DNA of 29,095 nt from IMG/VR virus record IMGVR_UViG_2872158770_000007; one strand, given 5' to 3'. This stretch comes from a virus (lineage: Duplodnaviria > Heunggongvirae > Uroviricota > Caudoviricetes). The notes beneath the pieces are model-generated. The model was given only the letters and a program-made list of their open reading frames with translations. It had not been told where the DNA came from and made no database searches. The translations under genes were made by a program, and so were the position numbers. This document shows positions 856 through 29,095 of the stretch, in pieces. How positions within the stretch are numbered: position 1 is the stretch's first letter; every line of letters begins with the position of its first letter.

Positions 856-1149
856 TCAGCTTCCACCAACCATAATCAATAGCACTTGCAAAAGTTGTCC
901 TAATGGAACTTGGATCACAATAATTCCAAAAGCATCAAGTACTGGTACTATGATCCAGTTATAGAGAATGATAAGGGTTAGTACAAAACCGAGGGCATTA
1001 CGCCAGTGGAATGTTACCTTTTCAATCTCTTCTTTATTCGTTTCAATCTGCCCTTCTACATTCGTTTTCTTTACTTCCTGTTCAATAGTTTTCTTCTTAA
1101 TGAAAAAATCCAATCCTGACTTCAGAAACTCAATCAATATACTAATCAT
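856..1149 (-). CDS. small membrane protein (charged N-terminal half, two C-terminal hydrophobic segments)
   Basis: 97-aa ORF. K/E-rich N-terminus followed by ALGFVLTLIILYNWIIVPVL and FGIIVIQVPLGQLLQVLLIMVGG hydrophobic stretches. Overlaps the next ORF start by 4 nt, suggesting translational coupling. Confidence 0.35.
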   Translation of the reverse strand: MISILIEFLKSGLDFFIKKKTIEQEVKKTNVEGQIETNKEEIEKVTFHWRNALGFVLTLIILYNWIIVPVLDAFGIIVIQVPLGQLLQVLLIMVGGS

Positions 1150-2042: not shown

Positions 2043-2477
2043 TCAATTCAAGTACTCCAATAGTTCCTGTACTATTCCGAGTAGTCTTTTTTTATCCTTT
2101 GCATTTGGTGATCTAATCTTACTCATCATTGCCAGATTCAAACATTCCGGTTTAAGCATCTGATGAAGGATCAGTATTGCCTCTACAATCATTACCTCTC
2201 GCATAGTTGCGAAGCACCATAGAATCGTTTTTGAGTACTGTTCACCATTTTCAATTTTGTTTTTAACGACATTGGAACTACTGAGGTACTCACGCCAGCC
2301 ATTTTCCTTTGAAGTGGGCTTTAGCTTTCTCGCATCCTTAACCCGCTGATAGATTTGCTTAGCACCGACATAATTAGAACCATCCTCAAACTGAAAGATA
2401 TAAACGAAACCAGCATATTCACCGGATAACATTTCCTCCTCGCTCCAATCATCCGAGTATTTCCATTCACTCATCAT
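2043..2477 (-). CDS. putative GIY-YIG-like nuclease domain protein
   Basis: 144-aa ORF. GFVYIFQFEDGSNYVGAKQ has the Y-I-F ... Y-V-G spacing (about 10 residues) typical of the GIY-YIG motif, followed by a conserved Arg. Weak, motif-level only. Confidence 0.35.
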   Translation of the reverse strand: MMSEWKYSDDWSEEEMLSGEYAGFVYIFQFEDGSNYVGAKQIYQRVKDARKLKPTSKENGWREYLSSSNVVKNKIENGEQYSKTILWCFATMREVMIVEAILILHQMLKPECLNLAMMSKIRSPNAKDKKRLLGIVQELLEYLN

Positions 2478-2513: not shown

Positions 2514-2963
2514 ATGAGCGATTTAAAAACACGATTAAAAGAATATGAAGGTACTAAAGAGTATCAGGCAAATTTGAAGTACTTCAGAAATGGGAAATTC
2601 TATCCATATGCTGATAGTTTAGGATGTAGTACTATTGTATATGGTCACTTAATTCAGGCGGGAGAAGATTTTAGTACTGGCATTACTGAAAGCGAAGCAG
2701 ACAAGTTACTATCTCGCGATTTAGCCAAAACAATTATGCAGGTACAGACATTAGGGTTAAATCTTCCCGATGACTGGAATGATTTTATTATTATCATGAC
2801 CTTCCAGTTAGGTATTGGCGGGGTGAAGAAATTCCGTAAGATGTTAGCAGCCCTGAAAGCACATGATTACCTTGAAGCAATTAAACAGGCTAAGTGTTCT
2901 CTATGGTACAGGCAGACACCAAACCGTGTGAATTCCATGATTGCAGTACTTAAAAACAAATAA
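2514..2963 (+). CDS. phage lysozyme (endolysin), T4 lysozyme-like glycoside hydrolase family 24
   Basis: 149 aa. Collinear with T4 lysozyme: YEG (Glu11 equivalent), YADSLG (Asp20), STIVYGH (Thr26), ITESEADKLLSRDL versus T4 ITKDEAEKLFNQDV, and C-terminal SLWYRQTPNRVNSMIAVL versus T4 SRWYNQTPNRAKRVITTF. Confidence 0.9.
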   Translation: MSDLKTRLKEYEGTKEYQANLKYFRNGKFYPYADSLGCSTIVYGHLIQAGEDFSTGITESEADKLLSRDLAKTIMQVQTLGLNLPDDWNDFIIIMTFQLGIGGVKKFRKMLAALKAHDYLEAIKQAKCSLWYRQTPNRVNSMIAVLKNK

Positions 2964-2969
2964 AGAAAA

Positions 2970-3004
2970 GGCATAGTACGAATGACATACTATGCCTTTT
3001 TTTA
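2970..3004. terminator. bidirectional rho-independent terminator between convergent genes
   Basis: Perfect 9-bp stem ggcatagta / tactatgcc (2970-2978 and 2988-2996), 9-nt loop, then a T-run on the plus strand 2997-3003. An A-run (aaaagaaaag) precedes it, giving a U-tract for the minus-strand transcript. Confidence 0.7.
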
Positions 3005-3274
3005 TGGTCGTTGTTTCTGCTGAAGAATTGCAATAATCCTTTCAATCTTAACATCAAGTTCATGGATTTGTGTTTCCAGTTTACTTAGTGTATCTCTCAT
3101 CTTATCCTGATCATCCTCAATACGGGAAATACTACTTTCCAGTACAGCAATGGTAGTTTCAAGAGTAGCAACGCGAGTTAATAGATCATTCGTATCCTTT
3201 GTATTATCTCTAAAGATAGTATAAAGGAATACGCATCCAGAAATAACAAGAGCTAAAATAGCACCGATATCCAT
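3002..3274 (-). CDS. membrane-anchored coiled-coil protein (spanin-like or holin-like; function unproven)
   Basis: 90 aa. N-terminal hydrophobic segment AILALVISGCVFLYTIF followed by a heptad-like charged region (LETTIAVLESSISRIEDDQDKMRDTLSKLETQIHELDVKIERIIAILQ). AAGGGA-like Shine-Dalgarno about 8 nt upstream of the ATG. Confidence 0.4.
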   Translation of the reverse strand: MDIGAILALVISGCVFLYTIFRDNTKDTNDLLTRVATLETTIAVLESSISRIEDDQDKMRDTLSKLETQIHELDVKIERIIAILQQKQRP

Positions 3275-4448: not shown

Positions 4449-9399
<4,951 letters not shown>

Positions 9400-23388: not shown

Positions 23389-23796
23389 TAGACTGGCCCC
23401 CTGAATCTCCAGACAACCAGTATCACTTAAATAAGTGATAGTCTTAATACTAGTTTTTAGACTAGTCATTGGAGTACAGATGATTGATGTCTTAGGGCCG
23501 GAGAAACGCAGACGGCGTACCACACAGGAAAAGATCGCAATTGTTCAGCAGAGCTTTGAACCGGGGATGACGGTCTCCCTCGTTGCCCGGCAACATGGTG
23601 TAGCAGCCAGCCAGTTATTTCTCTGGCGTAAGCAATACCAGGAAGGAAGTCTTACTGCTGTGGCCGCCGGAGAACAGGTTGTTCCTGCCTCTGAACTTGC
23701 TGCCGCCATGAAGCAGATTAAAGAACTCCAGAGCCTGCTCGGCAAGAAAACGATGGAAAATGAACTCCTCAAAGAAGCCGTTGAATATGGACGGGC

Positions 23797-26181
<2,385 letters not shown>

Positions 26182-26326: not shown

Positions 26327-26629
26327 TCAAAGCCGCTTACATTTAATATCATCGTACAAAGTTCCTTCTTTGTTTAGATATCTCGAACCGTAATTATATC
26401 CATCATCAAATGCTTCATTGGTTATTACCAGTTCCCTGTAAAATTTCTCATCAGGTGCTGTTTCATAATGAAATGCACCATAAGGCGGCGGCATTTTACC
26501 GAGATATCTTGTAACGTAGAAACTCATGTCAGTACTAAATGAATCGTTATGAATATCCCAGCATTTAAAGTCTGGAATAGCTGCACTTGTTGTTAAAGGT
26601 AATAATAATAGCAATATCAATTTTTCCAT
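26327..26629 (-). CDS. small secreted protein (signal peptide MEKLILLLLLPLTTSAA)
   Basis: ATG at 26629 gives a classic signal peptide; the track's upstream start is TTG. Mature protein about 80 aa with three Cys. Confidence 0.45.
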   Translation of the reverse strand: MEKLILLLLLPLTTSAAIPDFKCWDIHNDSFSTDMSFYVTRYLGKMPPPYGAFHYETAPDEKFYRELVITNEAFDDGYNYGSRYLNKEGTLYDDIKCKRL

Positions 26630-26848
26630 AAGAGATACCAATGCAAATGATTTAATTGCATGATAACACCTACAAAGTCTCAATACCAATTAACAAGCGA
26701 TATGGCTGATTTTGTTTCAATTACGTAAAATAATTTAAAATATCGTTAATTAAAACAATTGTGATGAAATGCTCACCTTGTAATTTGTTGCGTATTTGAT
26801 GAAAGTACTTACCCTTCATCAAATACACATTTCTTTAGTACTTGCCCT

Positions 26849-27289
26849 TTACTTGATAAGCAAACTATAGAATTTTCTTGTCTGCTCAACTGCAACGACA
26901 AAACAGCCAATTGCAAAACATGCTCTCAACCCACCATCCCCGCCGTGTAATGACATTGCGGTAGTGAATATAAAATTAGTCACCAAGAAAGTAATAGCCA
27001 TATACAAGATGAAATATAGAAATGAGAAAATGCGGCAAAGTATATTACTGCTTTTAATATCAAATATCTTTGCAAATACTTTCGTTAGTGGTGAAAAAAG
27101 CATAGCAATAAAACCAGGAACTACAGTTAGTAAGAATATCATTACTAACATTAAAGGTACTTTAACGTATTCATAACCACTAACACGAGTTAAAATAAGT
27201 ACTCCGACGATACCTGTTATTAAGCCACCGATTAGTAGTTCTTTAGTTCCTGCAAACATTTCAGAGATATTATCGACTGTAATTTTCAT
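26849..27289 (-). CDS. integral membrane protein, about 4 transmembrane segments
   Basis: 146 aa with four hydrophobic stretches (LLIGGLITGIVGVLIL, LMLVMIFLLTVVPGFIAMLF, IFSFLYFILYMAITFLVTNFIF, ACFAIGCFVVAV). Confidence 0.45.
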   Translation of the reverse strand: MKITVDNISEMFAGTKELLIGGLITGIVGVLILTRVSGYEYVKVPLMLVMIFLLTVVPGFIAMLFSPLTKVFAKIFDIKSSNILCRIFSFLYFILYMAITFLVTNFIFTTAMSLHGGDGGLRACFAIGCFVVAVEQTRKFYSLLIK

Positions 27290-27394
27290 TCTACTAACTA
27301 TTCCTTCATAAAAAGTTCACTCCGATCTTATCACCGCATAAAGAAAAAGCCCTGTAGATTCTCACCATACAGCCTAAGCACTAAACTTTTCGGA

Positions 27395-27664
27395 TTACTT
27401 CGATACTACCTGCCATTGTCCATCATGCCGGATGATCTCATACTGGTACTTACCATCACACCGTACATCAATACGTCCTGTACCATTCTCAGTACTATCC
27501 ATAGTCACCATATCGCATGGGTACTTACCCTTGATTAGTGACTGTGCGAAATCCATAGCGTTCTGGTTCTCATTGTCCGTGTACTGTGGCTGGGGTGCAT
27601 CCTCACCTGCAATGTTGAAGAGTACCCCAGCCAGTACTAACAAAATCACCATTACCTTTCCCAT
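27395..27664 (-). CDS. small exported protein
   Basis: 89 aa. N-terminal hydrophobic signal-like segment VMVILLVLAGVLFNIAG, then a polar domain with two Cys. Confidence 0.45.
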   Translation of the reverse strand: MGKVMVILLVLAGVLFNIAGEDAPQPQYTDNENQNAMDFAQSLIKGKYPCDMVTMDSTENGTGRIDVRCDGKYQYEIIRHDGQWQVVSK

Positions 27665-27671
27665 ACGTACC

Positions 27672-28034
27672 CTATAGATTGTCGAGGATATGGGATGGTG
27701 AATTGACCCCTTCTAACCAATCGTGAACACTATCGGTCTGATGTGGTACTACCTTACTTACATGCTCTCTATAGGGATGTAGTTCAGCAATGCGGGAATC
27801 TCGTATGAGGCATCCAGTACTTGTATTGTCATCATGATAGATCTTGTTATAGATGCGACCGCAATCACTCTGGAACTGAGGACGGTAGTACTTCACCCCA
27901 TTACGTGTTCCTGCATCAAACAGTACTACGGCCTTGTCATCTACATAGCCAACGTAAGCTTTATCCATGAAGCTGTGCGTAGTAGTACATCCAGTACTAA
28001 GGGCAATCAGTAACCCAATTAGTAATTTTTTCAT
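27672..28034 (-). CDS. putative lipoprotein
   Basis: MKKLLIGLLIALSTGC: positively charged n-region, hydrophobic core, lipobox-like STGC. 120 aa. Confidence 0.5.
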   Translation of the reverse strand: MKKLLIGLLIALSTGCTTTHSFMDKAYVGYVDDKAVVLFDAGTRNGVKYYRPQFQSDCGRIYNKIYHDDNTSTGCLIRDSRIAELHPYREHVSKVVPHQTDSVHDWLEGVNSPSHILDNL

Positions 28035-28039
28035 TATTG

Positions 28040-28591
28040 TTATCCTATTAATTTTTCACATTGCTCAAAACGCATTGGCCTGAACTCTCCCTGTACCGCC
28101 CATACACCGGCCTCTCTGAGAATTGGGTAATACGTTTTATCTCTGACGGGTACGATCACCTTCTCGCAGTACTGGCGAATGCTTTTTATGAGTACTGGAA
28201 AGATCAGACGGTCAATGTTCTCTTCTGTGTACCTTCTATTTAATCGGGCAACCTCGAAATCACCTGTAACCAGAGGAATAGCAGAACCACCATGTACACC
28301 GAGATCATCAAGCCACTGCTGGTTATGTACTTTCATATCCCTTGTCATCTGCCGAAGGAATGGTAAGTACTCGTATGGTTCACCACGGCCAGTAGTAATC
28401 ACACAATACAAACCGTTATCCCTGAACCATGCCGCCTTGCTTTCAATAAGCATTAGTTGCCCATGAAGTACTTCTTCTTCCCATAGGCCGATCTGCCTGA
28501 TTCCCTCGCGTTCTACATGGCTGACCAACTCAACCCCCAGCAACTGACCACCCAAACTTGTTATCGGTATTGCCCAATTATCAATGTTCAT
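28040..28591 (-). CDS. degenerate EAL-like domain protein (YdiV-like?), function uncertain
   Basis: 183 aa. QLLGVELVSHVEREG resembles the EAL/EVL motif region of degenerate EAL proteins. DDLGVHGGSAIPL sits where active EAL domains have DDFGTGYSSL. C-terminal AVQGEF is where QGY would be. Too short for a complete catalytic EAL domain. Confidence 0.3.
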   Translation of the reverse strand: MNIDNWAIPITSLGGQLLGVELVSHVEREGIRQIGLWEEEVLHGQLMLIESKAAWFRDNGLYCVITTGRGEPYEYLPFLRQMTRDMKVHNQQWLDDLGVHGGSAIPLVTGDFEVARLNRRYTEENIDRLIFPVLIKSIRQYCEKVIVPVRDKTYYPILREAGVWAVQGEFRPMRFEQCEKLIG

Positions 28592-28742
28592 AACTTTGCT
28601 CGTTACGCTTTAAGTTATTGATAATTGATCATTTTTAAAACATTGGCAATTAAATCGATCAATTTTATTGATCATTACAATAGAATTAATCATTCAAAGT
28701 GGTAAACAAAGGGGTGCTGGATTTTTGGGAAACTGACTGCAA

Positions 28743-28762
28743 TACTGTACATATATACAGTA
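28743..28762 (+). promoter_or_regulatory. LexA (SOS) box TACTGTACATATATACAGTA, 21 bp upstream of the ATG at 28784
   Basis: CTGT-N8-ACAG with an AT-rich spacer, 19/20 match to the enterobacterial consensus TACTGTATATATATACAGTA. Followed by AGGAGG (28771-28776) and the ATG. Confidence 0.8.
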
Positions 28763-28783: not shown

Positions 28784-29095
28784 ATGAGCAAAGACGGCTA
28801 TGATCCATCCATTACGCGAGGGGTTCAGAAGTTCTCACATAACGGTCGCTGGGCAACCGTGTGTTATTGGGGATCTGCACTAACAGAATTTCATTATGGG
28901 GATAGGGTATTCTTCCAGAATCAGTACAGGGAATACTGGTTAGGTACTATAGAGAGAGATTGTTTTGTACTTACCTGTGAAACACCACTAATAAGTGTTA
29001 TTGATGGGTTAGCATATCTATCTGCTGAGTACCGGATGAATCAAAGCAGTGAAGAAGGTGATTGGTTCTGTGATCAGGGGGAACTACCCTTCTGA
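28784..29095 (+). CDS. SOS-regulated small protein of unknown function
   Basis: 103-aa ORF with a strong RBS and a LexA box overlapping its promoter. No motif recognised. Stop at the window end. Confidence 0.5.
   Translation: MSKDGYDPSITRGVQKFSHNGRWATVCYWGSALTEFHYGDRVFFQNQYREYWLGTIERDCFVLTCETPLISVIDGLAYLSAEYRMNQSSEEGDWFCDQGELPF

What the first reader, a model, noticed from the sequence alone, without database searches (positions are those of the whole stretch)
26327..28034. Array of four small envelope-targeted proteins upstream of the packaging genes
Four consecutive minus-strand genes encode a signal-peptide protein, a 4-TM membrane protein, a small exported protein and a lipoprotein. This is where lambda-like phages usually carry lysis genes, but the lysozyme here is elsewhere (2514-2963). 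The set could be a holin/spanin-type lysis cassette without endolysin, or superinfection-exclusion or immunity proteins.
Basis: inference. Interest (0 to 1): 0.45.

Follow-up and report, generated by a model that had tools for sequence, protein, structure and literature searches.

The report
Prophage accessory envelope-protein gene array
Four real but uncharacterised genes in a decayed Shigella sonnei prophage send small proteins to the cell envelope; they are optional cargo that related phages carry in different combinations, not the phage's lysis genes, and what they do is still unknown.

Summary
Window 26327-28034 carries four minus-strand genes: a lipoprotein (120 aa), a small Sec-exported protein (89 aa), a four-helix inner-membrane protein (146 aa) and a second exported protein (100 aa, true start 26629). 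All are under purifying selection (dN/dS 0.035-0.32).

The lysis-cassette reading is not supported.
- The prophage has its own lysis module at the other end: a Pfam GTA_holin_3TM holin (856-1149), a GH24 lysozyme (2514-2963) and a TM plus coiled-coil protein (3002-3274).
- Related prophages with an intact large terminase carry the four genes in almost every presence/absence combination, always in the same order.
- Spanin gene order and protein features are not met.
- An opposite-strand gene separates the array from terS.

The array is a mosaic of two composition blocks (43-46% and 34% GC), with a terminator between them that relatives conserve. The sp89-type gene, that terminator and the tm146-type gene also occur together on Cronobacter phage-plasmid-like plasmids. 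The most distant tm146 relative lies between an integrase and a CI-like repressor.

None of the four matches Pfam, PHROGs, NCBIfam, PADLOC or PDB, and fold searches were uninformative.

Best reading: moron-type envelope cargo. Superinfection exclusion or envelope immunity is the most likely role, but this is unproven. The finding is ordinary in kind and new in sequence.

The parts
27672..28034 (-). lipo120: 120-aa predicted lipoprotein (signal peptide plus lipobox LSTG|C, Cys16)
27395..27664 (-). sp89: 89-aa Sec-exported (or N-terminally anchored) small protein with two invariant Cys
   Evidence: ORF and hydropathy. Alignment A3 has invariant C50 and C69 and the conserved motif DFAQ.LI...Y.C..VT. 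The Phytobacter homologue has a classical cleavable signal peptide. dN/dS 0.32. One family member gives a weak PepSY_2 hint (E 0.15), which is not evidence.
27340..27376 (-). Decayed intrinsic terminator between sp89 and tm146; also the boundary between the two GC blocks
   Evidence: Relatives have a perfect stem plus U-run at the same place: L010 (z -3.9), L002 (z -2.2), and the Cronobacter copy read from its sequence. The Kluyvera copy has a differently sequenced stem, read from its sequence. The 5' arm is mutated in the window. GC drops from 43-46% to 34% here.
26849..27289 (-). tm146: 146-aa inner-membrane protein with four long helices, predicted N-in/C-in
   Evidence: Hydropathy. AlphaFold pLDDT 79.7, helices 15-37, 41-63, 82-111 and 119-145. 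Only 8 clusters among 1.84 billion representatives. dN/dS 0.035. No informative fold or sequence match.
26789..26829 (.). Hairpin with arms of about 15-17 bp just after the tm146 stop codon
   Evidence: Inverted repeat I1, 15-nt arms, 93% complementary. RNA fold -29.6 kcal/mol, z -5.8, with 0 of 200 shuffles folding as well. There is no U-run on the minus strand and a T-rich run on the plus strand, so it may act as a bidirectional or plus-strand terminator (inference).
26660..26689 (-). Predicted sigma-70 promoter (TTGGTA-18-TATCAT with extended -10 TG) about 30 nt upstream of the sp100 ATG
   Evidence: Consensus scan only. Promoter-like sites in the region are not enriched over shuffles, so this is weak.
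26327..26629 (-). sp100: 100-aa Sec-exported protein (signal peptide ...TTSAA|IPDF), mature form about 83 aa, with one Cys near each end
   Evidence: ORF. Orthologue alignment A5 has invariant C23 and C97. Only its own 90% cluster was found in the word-indexed search. tblastn found orthologues in Enterobacter, Kluyvera and two viral contigs, always directly downstream of a tm146 homologue. dN/dS 0.26.
   Evidence: PDB 5hxg (Salmonella STM1697), E 4.6e-25. NCBIfam PRK11596, E 2.7e-5, far below its cut-off. Pfam EAL does not hit. It sits next to the lipoprotein gene in about 10 related contexts.
28577..28693 (.). Cluster of (A)TGATCAAT-like repeats with three GATC sites, upstream of g183; candidate operators
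   Evidence: Five of the 25 window matches fall in these 120 nt. Similar repeats occur at the same place in relatives. Function is inferred.
28743..28762 (.). Consensus LexA (SOS) box TACTGTATATATGTACAGTA, 21 nt upstream of the divergent 103-aa gene
   Evidence: The only match in the window, 0.04 expected by chance. A CTG-N10-CAG box is present at the same place in the 7 related loci examined.
28784..29095 (+). p103: divergent 103-aa gene (phrog_2100, function unknown) behind the LexA box
   Evidence: It lies divergent from the EAL-like gene in many relatives.
25561..26181 (+). Context: opposite-strand ORF between the array and terS. The true start is probably Met20 at 25618. It contains a D...IEFK motif.
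   Evidence: Homologues of 186 aa in relatives start further in. In other relatives this slot holds PLDc_2, DUF3800, mSLOG/DUF488/DuOB or a same-strand 125-aa gene.
25037..25582 (-). Context: Nu1-type small terminase subunit
   Evidence: phrog_57, E 1.3e-22. Phage_Nu1, E 7.6e-5.
856..1149 (-). Context: the prophage's likely real holin
   Evidence: Pfam GTA_holin_3TM, 25.0 bits against a cut-off of 24.8, E 2.9e-5. PHROG holin, E 1.9e-4. C-terminal TM segments. Conserved in Enterobacter and Pantoea relatives.
2514..2963 (+). Context: GH24 lysozyme
   Evidence: PF00959, E 3.7e-10. phrog_13211, E 3.8e-38.
3002..3274 (-). Context: 90-aa protein with an N-terminal TM segment and a coiled coil, next to the lysozyme
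   Evidence: TM segment at residues 5-21. PHROG 'Rz-like spanin', E 2.7e-5. The precomputed Pfam DUF2730 hit on the 99%-identical Enterobacter copy is marked weak. My own Pfam scan listed only coiled-coil families among its best 25 hits. DUF2730 is the family of the phage Mu gp25 releasin (PMC9239132).

Best explanation
The four genes are accessory (moron-type) cargo of a decayed SOS-linked prophage in Shigella sonnei. They are not its lysis cassette.

**Shown**
- They are real genes under purifying selection.
- They lie in a fixed-order but presence/absence-variable region (EAL-like, lipoprotein, sp89, tm146, sp100) between a LexA-box control region and terS. This region is found in a family of Enterobacterales prophages with a serine integrase and Nu1/gpA terminase.
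- The array is a mosaic of two composition blocks separated by a terminator.
- The sp89-type/terminator/tm146-type segment has moved into an unrelated plasmid backbone.

**Inferred from sequence**
- The lipoprotein is exported by Sec, lipidated at Cys16 and sorted to the outer membrane.
- sp89 and sp100 are released into, or anchored facing, the periplasm, and each forms one disulfide.
- tm146 sits in the inner membrane as an N-in/C-in four-helix bundle.

**Inferred function (unproven)**
- The proteins change the envelope of the cell that carries the prophage so that it is protected.
- The most likely route is blocking adsorption or DNA entry of incoming phages. The lipoprotein would mask a receptor, as T5 Llp and Cor do. 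tm146 with its periplasmic partners would block entry at the inner membrane, as T4 Imm, P22 SieA and HK97 gp15 do.
- Neutralising envelope-acting toxins is the alternative.
For: **Origin.** The exact proteins are named Shigella sonnei and are seen on about 300 contigs each. An IS2 element at 99.6% identity splits the large terminase.

**Real genes.** dN/dS is 0.035-0.32.

**Not essential.** Relatives with full-length terL lack tm146 (L015, L017, L018, L019) or lack the lipoprotein (L010, L023). sp97 occurs without tm146 (L024, L046-L049). tm146 occurs without sp97 (L009, L013, L014, L023, L038-L040, L051).

**A separate lysis module exists.** The holin passes the Pfam cut-off, and it sits with a lysozyme and a TM plus coiled-coil protein. 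The module is conserved even in gutted relatives.

**Moron features.** There is a functional terminator after sp97 in four lineages, with a different stem sequence in Kluyvera. There is a strong hairpin after tm146. GC steps from 43-46% to 34%.

**Mobility.** The sp97/terminator/tm146 segment, plus a p103 fragment, lies next to phoH on Cronobacter plasmids.

**Lysogeny-type position.** The most distant tm146 homologue lies between an integrase and a CI-like repressor.

**Neighbouring slot.** In relatives the adjacent slot holds varied non-structural cargo: PLDc_2, DUF3800, and mSLOG/DUF488/DuOB. I read these as defence-like.

**Not co-transcribed with packaging genes.** The convergent ORF 25561-26181 separates the array from terS.
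Against: No functional evidence exists. There are no matches to any known exclusion, immunity or defence family in Pfam, PHROGs, NCBIfam, PADLOC or PDB. Fold searches were uninformative.

The array has the same orientation as the late genes and lies behind an operator-like repeat cluster next to a LexA box. It could therefore be expressed in the lytic cycle rather than in the lysogen.

Promoter predictions are weak and not enriched over shuffles.

The fixed gene order across relatives could mean an ancestral operon with repeated losses, not independently acquired morons.

Several relatives used for the 'dispensable' argument are uncharacterised prophages or metagenome contigs. An intact terL does not prove they are viable phages.
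Confidence: 0.6

Rival explanations
1. Lysis cassette without endolysin: tm146 is a holin, and the lipoprotein plus sp89 form a two-component spanin at the head of the late operon, as in lambda.
For: The position is upstream of terS on the same strand, where lambda-like phages keep S, R and Rz. tm146 is a small multi-TM protein. A lipoprotein lies next to a protein with an N-terminal hydrophobic segment.
Against: - A holin that passes the Pfam cut-off sits with the lysozyme and a TM plus coiled-coil protein at the other end.
- Relatives with intact terL lack tm146 or the lipoprotein.
- The gene order, lipoprotein first, is the reverse of known spanin architectures.
- The mature lipoprotein is about 105 aa and not Pro-rich.
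- The sp89 domain is about 65 aa and Cys-bonded, with no long coiled coil.
- No PHROG or Pfam holin or spanin hit.
- A convergent gene and a terminator separate the array from terS.
- A tm146 homologue lies between an integrase and a repressor in L051.
Confidence: 0.05
2. Orphan immunity proteins: the periplasmic, lipoprotein and membrane products neutralise envelope-acting toxins of competitors (colicins, T6SS amidase or lysozyme effectors), so the prophage protects its host in bacterial warfare rather than against phages.
For: The small disulfide-containing periplasmic proteins diverge much faster (sp89 55%, sp100 71% identity to the Enterobacter copy) than the membrane protein (96%). A 4-TM N-in/C-in protein of about 150 aa resembles pore-forming-colicin immunity proteins in size and topology (my knowledge). 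Distribution among relatives is patchy.
Against: No hit to any Pfam immunity family or to PADLOC. No toxin or effector gene lies next to any copy examined. dN/dS is below 0.35 for all four genes, so there is no sign of an arms race at whole-gene level.
Confidence: 0.15
3. Lytic-cycle helpers: the genes are switched on after SOS induction and act during phage growth. They might tune lysis timing, or mask receptors so that progeny are not wasted on cell debris, as T5 Llp does.
For: The array has the same orientation as the structural genes. It lies downstream of a conserved repeat cluster that looks like operators, beside a conserved LexA box. The gene order is fixed across the family.
Against: Terminators lie inside the array. 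A convergent gene comes before terS. The L051 homologue lies beside the integrase and repressor. The cassette also occurs on plasmids without that control region.
Confidence: 0.15
4. Host-interaction factors: with the STM1697-like EAL protein (a flagellar repressor type), the envelope proteins alter surface properties relevant to infection, for example serum resistance as with the lambda Bor lipoprotein.
For: The lipoprotein gene is tightly coupled to an STM1697-like gene. STM1697 restrains FlhD4C2 in Salmonella (PMC5622320). Lambda carries the bor lipoprotein gene in the same general place, between the lysis genes and cos (my knowledge).
Against: No similarity to Bor, Iss, Lom or TraT families. 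Relatives occur in plant- and environment-associated genera: Pantoea, Kosakonia, Buttiauxella, Rahnella. Shigella is non-motile, so a flagellar repressor has no obvious target there (my knowledge).
Confidence: 0.05

Closest known systems
Phage morons / lysogenic-conversion cargo (for example lambda bor and lom, HK97 gp15)
   Same: Present in only some members of a set of closely related phages. Bounded by terminators. Composition differs from the neighbouring genes. Small envelope-targeted products. Transferable between unrelated phage backbones.
   Different: Expression from the repressed prophage is not shown. The genes keep a fixed order across the family, which looks more like a decaying shared operon than independent insertions. 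There is no sequence similarity to any described moron.
Superinfection-exclusion proteins: T5 Llp and phi80/N15 Cor (outer-membrane lipoproteins), T4 Imm, P22 SieA and HK97 gp15 (inner membrane), T4 Sp and P1 Sim (periplasm)
   Same: The same three envelope compartments are targeted by small prophage-encoded proteins. Distribution is patchy.
   Different: No homology was detected in PHROGs, Pfam or tblastn against 50,697 phage records. No phenotype is known. Known systems are usually single genes, not arrays.
Lambda-type lysis cassette (holin, endolysin, Rz/Rz1 spanins) upstream of Nu1
   Same: Position upstream of a Nu1-type terS on the same strand. Includes a small multi-TM protein and a lipoprotein.
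   Different: Not universal among relatives. Gene order and protein features do not fit spanins. The endolysin and a Pfam-recognised holin lie elsewhere. A convergent gene and terminators separate the array from terS.
Pore-forming-colicin immunity proteins (A-type, four TM helices)
   Same: tm146 has a similar size, four TM helices and predicted N-in/C-in topology.
   Different: No sequence similarity. No colicin gene nearby. This resemblance comes from memory and was not tested.

Membership tests
Two-component spanin (Rz/Rz1 type) | o-spanin: a small outer-membrane lipoprotein (mature form usually well under 100 aa), proline-rich | tested here: not met
   The lipobox and Cys16 are present. 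However, the mature protein is about 105 aa, has 4 Pro, and is modelled with a beta-sheet core.
Two-component spanin (Rz/Rz1 type) | i-spanin: an N-terminal TM anchor plus a long coiled-coil periplasmic domain | tested here: not met
   sp89 has an N-terminal hydrophobic segment. Its periplasmic part is only about 65 aa, with two invariant Cys. A homologue has a cleavable signal peptide instead of an anchor.
Two-component spanin (Rz/Rz1 type) | o-spanin gene embedded in, overlapping or directly following the i-spanin gene, within the lysis cassette | tested here: not met
   The lipoprotein gene comes before sp89. The lysozyme and holin lie about 24 kb away.
Holin | Small membrane protein with at least one TM segment | tested here: met
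   tm146 has four long helices.
Holin | Sequence membership of a described holin family | tested here: not met
   tm146 has no Pfam, PHROG or NCBIfam hit. In contrast, ORF 856-1149 passes the Pfam GTA_holin_3TM cut-off.
Holin | Linked to the endolysin gene and retained in all functional relatives | tested here: not met
   Absent from L015, L017, L018 and L019, which have full-length terL. Not adjacent to the lysozyme.
Holin | Triggers membrane permeabilisation and lysis when expressed with an endolysin | not testable with these tools
   Needs an expression experiment.
Moron / lysogenic-conversion gene | Present in some but not all closely related phage genomes | tested here: met
   Presence/absence matrix over about 20 distinct contexts.
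Moron / lysogenic-conversion gene | Own transcription signals (promoter and terminator flanking the gene) | tested here: inconclusive
   A terminator follows sp97 in four lineages, and a strong hairpin follows tm146. Promoter predictions are weak.
Moron / lysogenic-conversion gene | Base composition differs from the flanking phage genes | tested here: met
   g183, lipo120 and sp89 are 43-46% GC. tm146 and sp100 are 34%. The structural region is 40%.
Moron / lysogenic-conversion gene | Expressed from the repressed prophage | not testable with these tools
   Needs RNA-seq or reporter fusions in a lysogen.
Superinfection-exclusion proteins (Llp/Cor, Imm, SieA, gp15, Sp, Sim) | Sequence or fold similarity to a described exclusion protein | tested here: not met
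Superinfection-exclusion proteins (Llp/Cor, Imm, SieA, gp15, Sp, Sim) | Blocks adsorption or DNA entry of superinfecting phage | not testable with these tools
   Needs plating and adsorption assays.
GtrA-type O-antigen modification flippase (4 TM, about 120 aa, in Shigella phages) | Pfam GtrA family membership with adjacent gtrB and gtrC | tested here: not met
   No Pfam hit for tm146 at E up to 1, apart from noise. No glycosyltransferase genes nearby.

The most novel reading that the evidence does not exclude
tm146 and the small periplasmic proteins that travel with it (sp89/97, sp100, and the p94/p99 family) form a previously undescribed inner-membrane-centred exclusion or immunity system. 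It would be portable between prophage families and phage-plasmids. The 4-TM protein would be the constant core and the exchangeable periplasmic partners would set specificity.
Probability: 0.2. Interest if true: 0.55.

Novelty: new member of a known kind. Interest (0 to 1): 0.3.

Why it matters
If these proteins block phage entry or envelope toxins, they would add new sequence families to the short list of known exclusion or immunity proteins. They might also be relevant to phage sensitivity of Shigella sonnei, where the exact proteins are seen on about 300 contigs each. The comparative map also gives a clean set of natural presence/absence variants for testing each gene. As it stands, the finding is a typical block of unknown prophage cargo. 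The main practical result is negative: this is not the lysis cassette.

Tried and rejected
**Database searches with no result**
- The four proteins had no significant match in Pfam, PHROGs, NCBIfam or PADLOC.
- A per-member Pfam scan of the sp89 family gave only one weak PepSY_2 hint (E 0.15). I do not count it as evidence.
- PDB sequence and profile searches found nothing for lipo120, sp89 or tm146.
- Megablast of the region against phages found nothing.
- Megablast against 5,426 complete E. coli genomes found only partial, distant matches.
- tblastn of the five concatenated proteins against phages gave two hits of unknown function.

**Structure work**
- The afdb50 library was not available.
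sp89 and sp100 therefore have no models.

**Ideas considered and dropped**
- GtrA flippase: no Pfam hit and no gtrB or gtrC.
- Bor, Iss, Lom or TraT: no hits.
- RexB: no partner RexA and no similarity.
- u-spanin: the lipoprotein has no C-terminal TM segment.
- sp89 plus tm146 as an obligate pair: each occurs without the other.

**A false lead**
- GGTAAGTAC-like strings repeated in the region looked like a motif. Two of them are the codons for Gly-Lys-Tyr in sp89, and one of the intergenic copies is the loop of the hairpin.
Full report
**1. Where the window comes from**

The exact protein sequences of the region are on record under Shigella sonnei, each on about 300 contigs including complete chromosomes. 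The window is a decayed prophage.
- An IS2 copy at 99.6% identity lies at about 23389-24720. It splits the gpA-type large terminase.
- A second transposase lies at 7399-8238.
- The structural genes run on the minus strand from terS (25037-25582; phrog_57, E 1.3e-22) down to about 3300.
- No sequenced phage is close. Megablast of the region against phages found nothing. The portal is at most 35% identical to any phage record.
- Only distant, partial matches exist in 5,426 complete E. coli genomes.

**2. The observation**

All four ORFs are there.
- **lipo120 (27672-28034).** It starts MKKLLIGLLIALSTG-C. In 23 aligned homologues Cys16 is invariant and sits in a lipobox-like context. Cys58 and Cys75 are also invariant. 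The residue after the Cys is never Asp, so by the E. coli +2 rule it should go to the outer membrane (inference).
- **sp89 (27395-27664).** It has a strongly hydrophobic N-terminus. Its Phytobacter homologue has a textbook cleavable signal peptide (…FTALA|DDEQ). The family keeps two Cys and a DFAQ.LI…Y.C..VT core.
- **tm146 (26849-27289).** It shows three to four hydropathy peaks. A fairly confident AlphaFold model (pLDDT 79.7, pTM 0.72) has four long helices. The basic loop at residues 67-86 and the basic C-terminus suggest N-in/C-in (inference).
- **sp100.** It should be read from the ATG at 26629, not the TTG at 26689. Orthologues begin there, and the conserved mature sequence starts right after …TTSAA|IPDF.C. 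One invariant Cys lies near each end.

The genes are not chance ORFs. dN/dS against the Enterobacter copies is 0.19, 0.32, 0.035 and 0.26.

Two corrections to the description:
- A fifth gene belongs to the unit. This is an EAL-like protein (28040-28591) whose stop lies 5 nt before the lipoprotein start.
- The opposite-strand ORF 25561-26181 lies between the array and terS.

**3. The lysis reading fails**

(a) The lysozyme (PF00959, E 3.7e-10) lies in a conserved module.
- The module includes a 97-aa protein (856-1149) that passes the Pfam gathering score for GTA_holin_3TM (25.0 against 24.8 bits).
- It also includes a 90-aa protein with an N-terminal TM segment and a coiled coil (3002-3274).
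- The 99%-identical Enterobacter copy of that 90-aa protein carries a weak precomputed DUF2730 hit. My own Pfam scan listed only coiled-coil families among its best 25 hits.
- DUF2730 is the family of the phage Mu gp25 'releasin', which maps near endolysin genes (PMC9239132).
- The module survives even in relatives that have lost all structural genes.

(b) I collected about 20 distinct related contexts from genomes, metagenomes, viral contigs and plasmids and mapped the window proteins onto them.
- The order EAL-like, lipoprotein, sp89, tm146, sp100, then either a same-strand 125-aa gene or the reversed p206-type gene, then terS, is always kept.
- Almost every presence/absence combination occurs.
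- Relatives with full-length terL lack tm146 (Buttiauxella L015, Scandinavium L017, L018, Pluralibacter L019) or lack the lipoprotein (L010, L023).
- An essential holin or spanin would not behave this way.

(c) Spanin architecture is not met.
- The lipoprotein gene comes first.
- Its mature product is about 105 aa and not Pro-rich.
- sp89 has a short Cys-bonded domain.

(d) In the window, a convergent gene and internal terminators separate the array from the packaging genes.

**4. What the array looks like instead**

- **Mosaic composition.** g183, lipo120 and sp89 are 43-46% GC. tm146, sp100 and p206 are 32-34%.
- **Terminator at the junction.** The break falls at an intrinsic terminator. It is perfect in the L010, Enterobacter and Cronobacter copies. 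In Kluyvera it has a differently sequenced stem, GCCCTATA/TATAGGGC in place of GCCCTGTA/TACAGGGC. In the window its 5' arm is mutated.
- **Hairpin after tm146.** A hairpin with arms of about 15-17 bp (z -5.8) follows tm146.
- **Mobility.** The sp97/terminator/tm146 segment, together with a fragment of the p103 gene, sits next to phoH on Cronobacter sakazakii plasmids. These carry phage-type genes (Gp49, integrase) and are recorded in IMG/VR as viral contigs. The segment has therefore moved between unrelated backbones.
- **A distant copy in a lysogeny-type position.** The most distant tm146 homologue (29% identity) lies between a serine integrase and a CI-like repressor. It is followed by an exported 99-aa protein homologous to the one that precedes sp97 on the Cronobacter plasmid.
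- **sp100 depends on tm146.** sp100 occurs only directly downstream of a tm146 homologue. This holds down to 40% identity, where stop and start codons overlap.
- **Recurring theme.** tm146 is the core. At least three unrelated families of small Sec-exported proteins accompany it.
- **Neighbouring slot.** The slot between the array and terS holds other variable cargo in relatives: PLDc_2, DUF3800, mSLOG/DUF488/DuOB, and large ATPase-like ORFs.

**5. Function**

Nothing known matches.
- No Pfam, PHROG, NCBIfam, PADLOC or PDB hit.
- tm146 has only 8 clusters among 1.84 billion representatives.
- sp89 and sp100 have almost no recorded homologues.
- The lipoprotein family has 62 members, all unnamed and all Enterobacterales.
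- Fold searches were uninformative.

My best-supported explanation is therefore by class: accessory envelope cargo of a temperate phage. The most likely role is protection of the carrier cell, through superinfection exclusion or envelope immunity. I rate 'accessory, not lysis' at about 0.8, and the specific exclusion role at about 0.3.

One caveat is real. The array lies behind a cluster of ATGATCAAT-like repeats next to a perfectly conserved LexA box. It may therefore be switched on with the lytic cycle.

**6. Comparison with known systems, and verdict**

The array behaves like morons: patchy distribution, terminators, odd composition and mobility. It targets the same compartments as Llp/Cor, Imm/SieA/gp15 and Sp/Sim. 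It is not a sequence member of any of these families.

It is ordinary in kind and new in sequence. Interest is modest.

Noticed in passing
window 23389-24720: An IS2 copy (99.6% identical to IS2 in Shigella and E. coli phage records) splits the gpA-type large terminase. The N-terminal piece is 24679-25122. The prophage therefore cannot package DNA.
   Followed up: partly
window 7399-8603: A second insertion sequence lies in a high-GC (about 53%) patch at the upstream end of the 1006-aa tail-tip ORF (4449-7469), which the transposase ORF overlaps. The transposase hits phrog_157 at E 1.5e-124.
   Followed up: no
window 28743-28762: A perfect LexA box (TACTGTATATATGTACAGTA) lies 21 nt upstream of the divergent 103-aa gene (phrog_2100). 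A CTG-N10-CAG box sits at the same place in the 7 related loci examined. The small protein could be an SOS-controlled antirepressor-type switch.
   Followed up: partly
window 28577-28693: A cluster of ATGATCAAT-like repeats with three GATC (Dam) sites within about 50 nt lies upstream of the EAL-like gene. Relatives have similar repeats. These could be operators or a Dam-sensitive switch.
   Followed up: partly
window 28040-28591: A shortened, degenerate EAL-like protein related to Salmonella STM1697 (PDB 5hxg, E 4.6e-25), an anti-FlhD4C2 factor. Related prophages carry one or two such genes. The gene is tightly coupled to the lipoprotein gene in about ten contexts.
   Followed up: partly
window 2514-2963, compared with L006-L008: The lysozyme gene is inverted relative to its neighbours in Shigella and Enterobacter, but co-directional with them in Pantoea relatives. 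A bidirectional-looking terminator (GGCATAGTA…TACTATGCC plus a T-run) lies at about 2966-3000.
   Followed up: partly
window 2043-2477: A SegE-type GIY-YIG homing-endonuclease-like gene (Pfam E 2.1e-16) sits inside the lysis module, between the lysozyme and the downstream genes. It is conserved in relatives.
   Followed up: no
window 25561-26181: The opposite-strand ORF abutting terS probably starts at Met20 (25618). It has a D…IEFK motif reminiscent of PD-(D/E)xK nucleases and a Cys-rich C-terminus. In relatives this slot instead holds PLDc_2, DUF3800, mSLOG/DUF488/DuOB or ATPase-like genes, so it looks like a defence hot spot.
   Followed up: partly
L002, L006, L010, L051 (related loci): This prophage family uses a large serine recombinase and has only about 5 kb between the integrase and the EAL/terS region. 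No obvious replication or CI/Cro genes appear in most members. Insertion sites differ: next to a rimO-like radical-SAM gene in Enterobacter, and next to msyB in L010. Many copies have lost the whole structural block but keep both end modules.
   Followed up: no
L030 (Cronobacter sakazakii plasmid pCsaCS931a) 6847-8019: A 51.6-kb plasmid carrying phage-type genes (phoH, a Gp49-family gene, an integrase) has three consecutive small envelope genes: exported p94, sp97 and tm146. A fragment of the p103 gene lies beside them, a footprint of recombination with the prophage family.
   Followed up: partly
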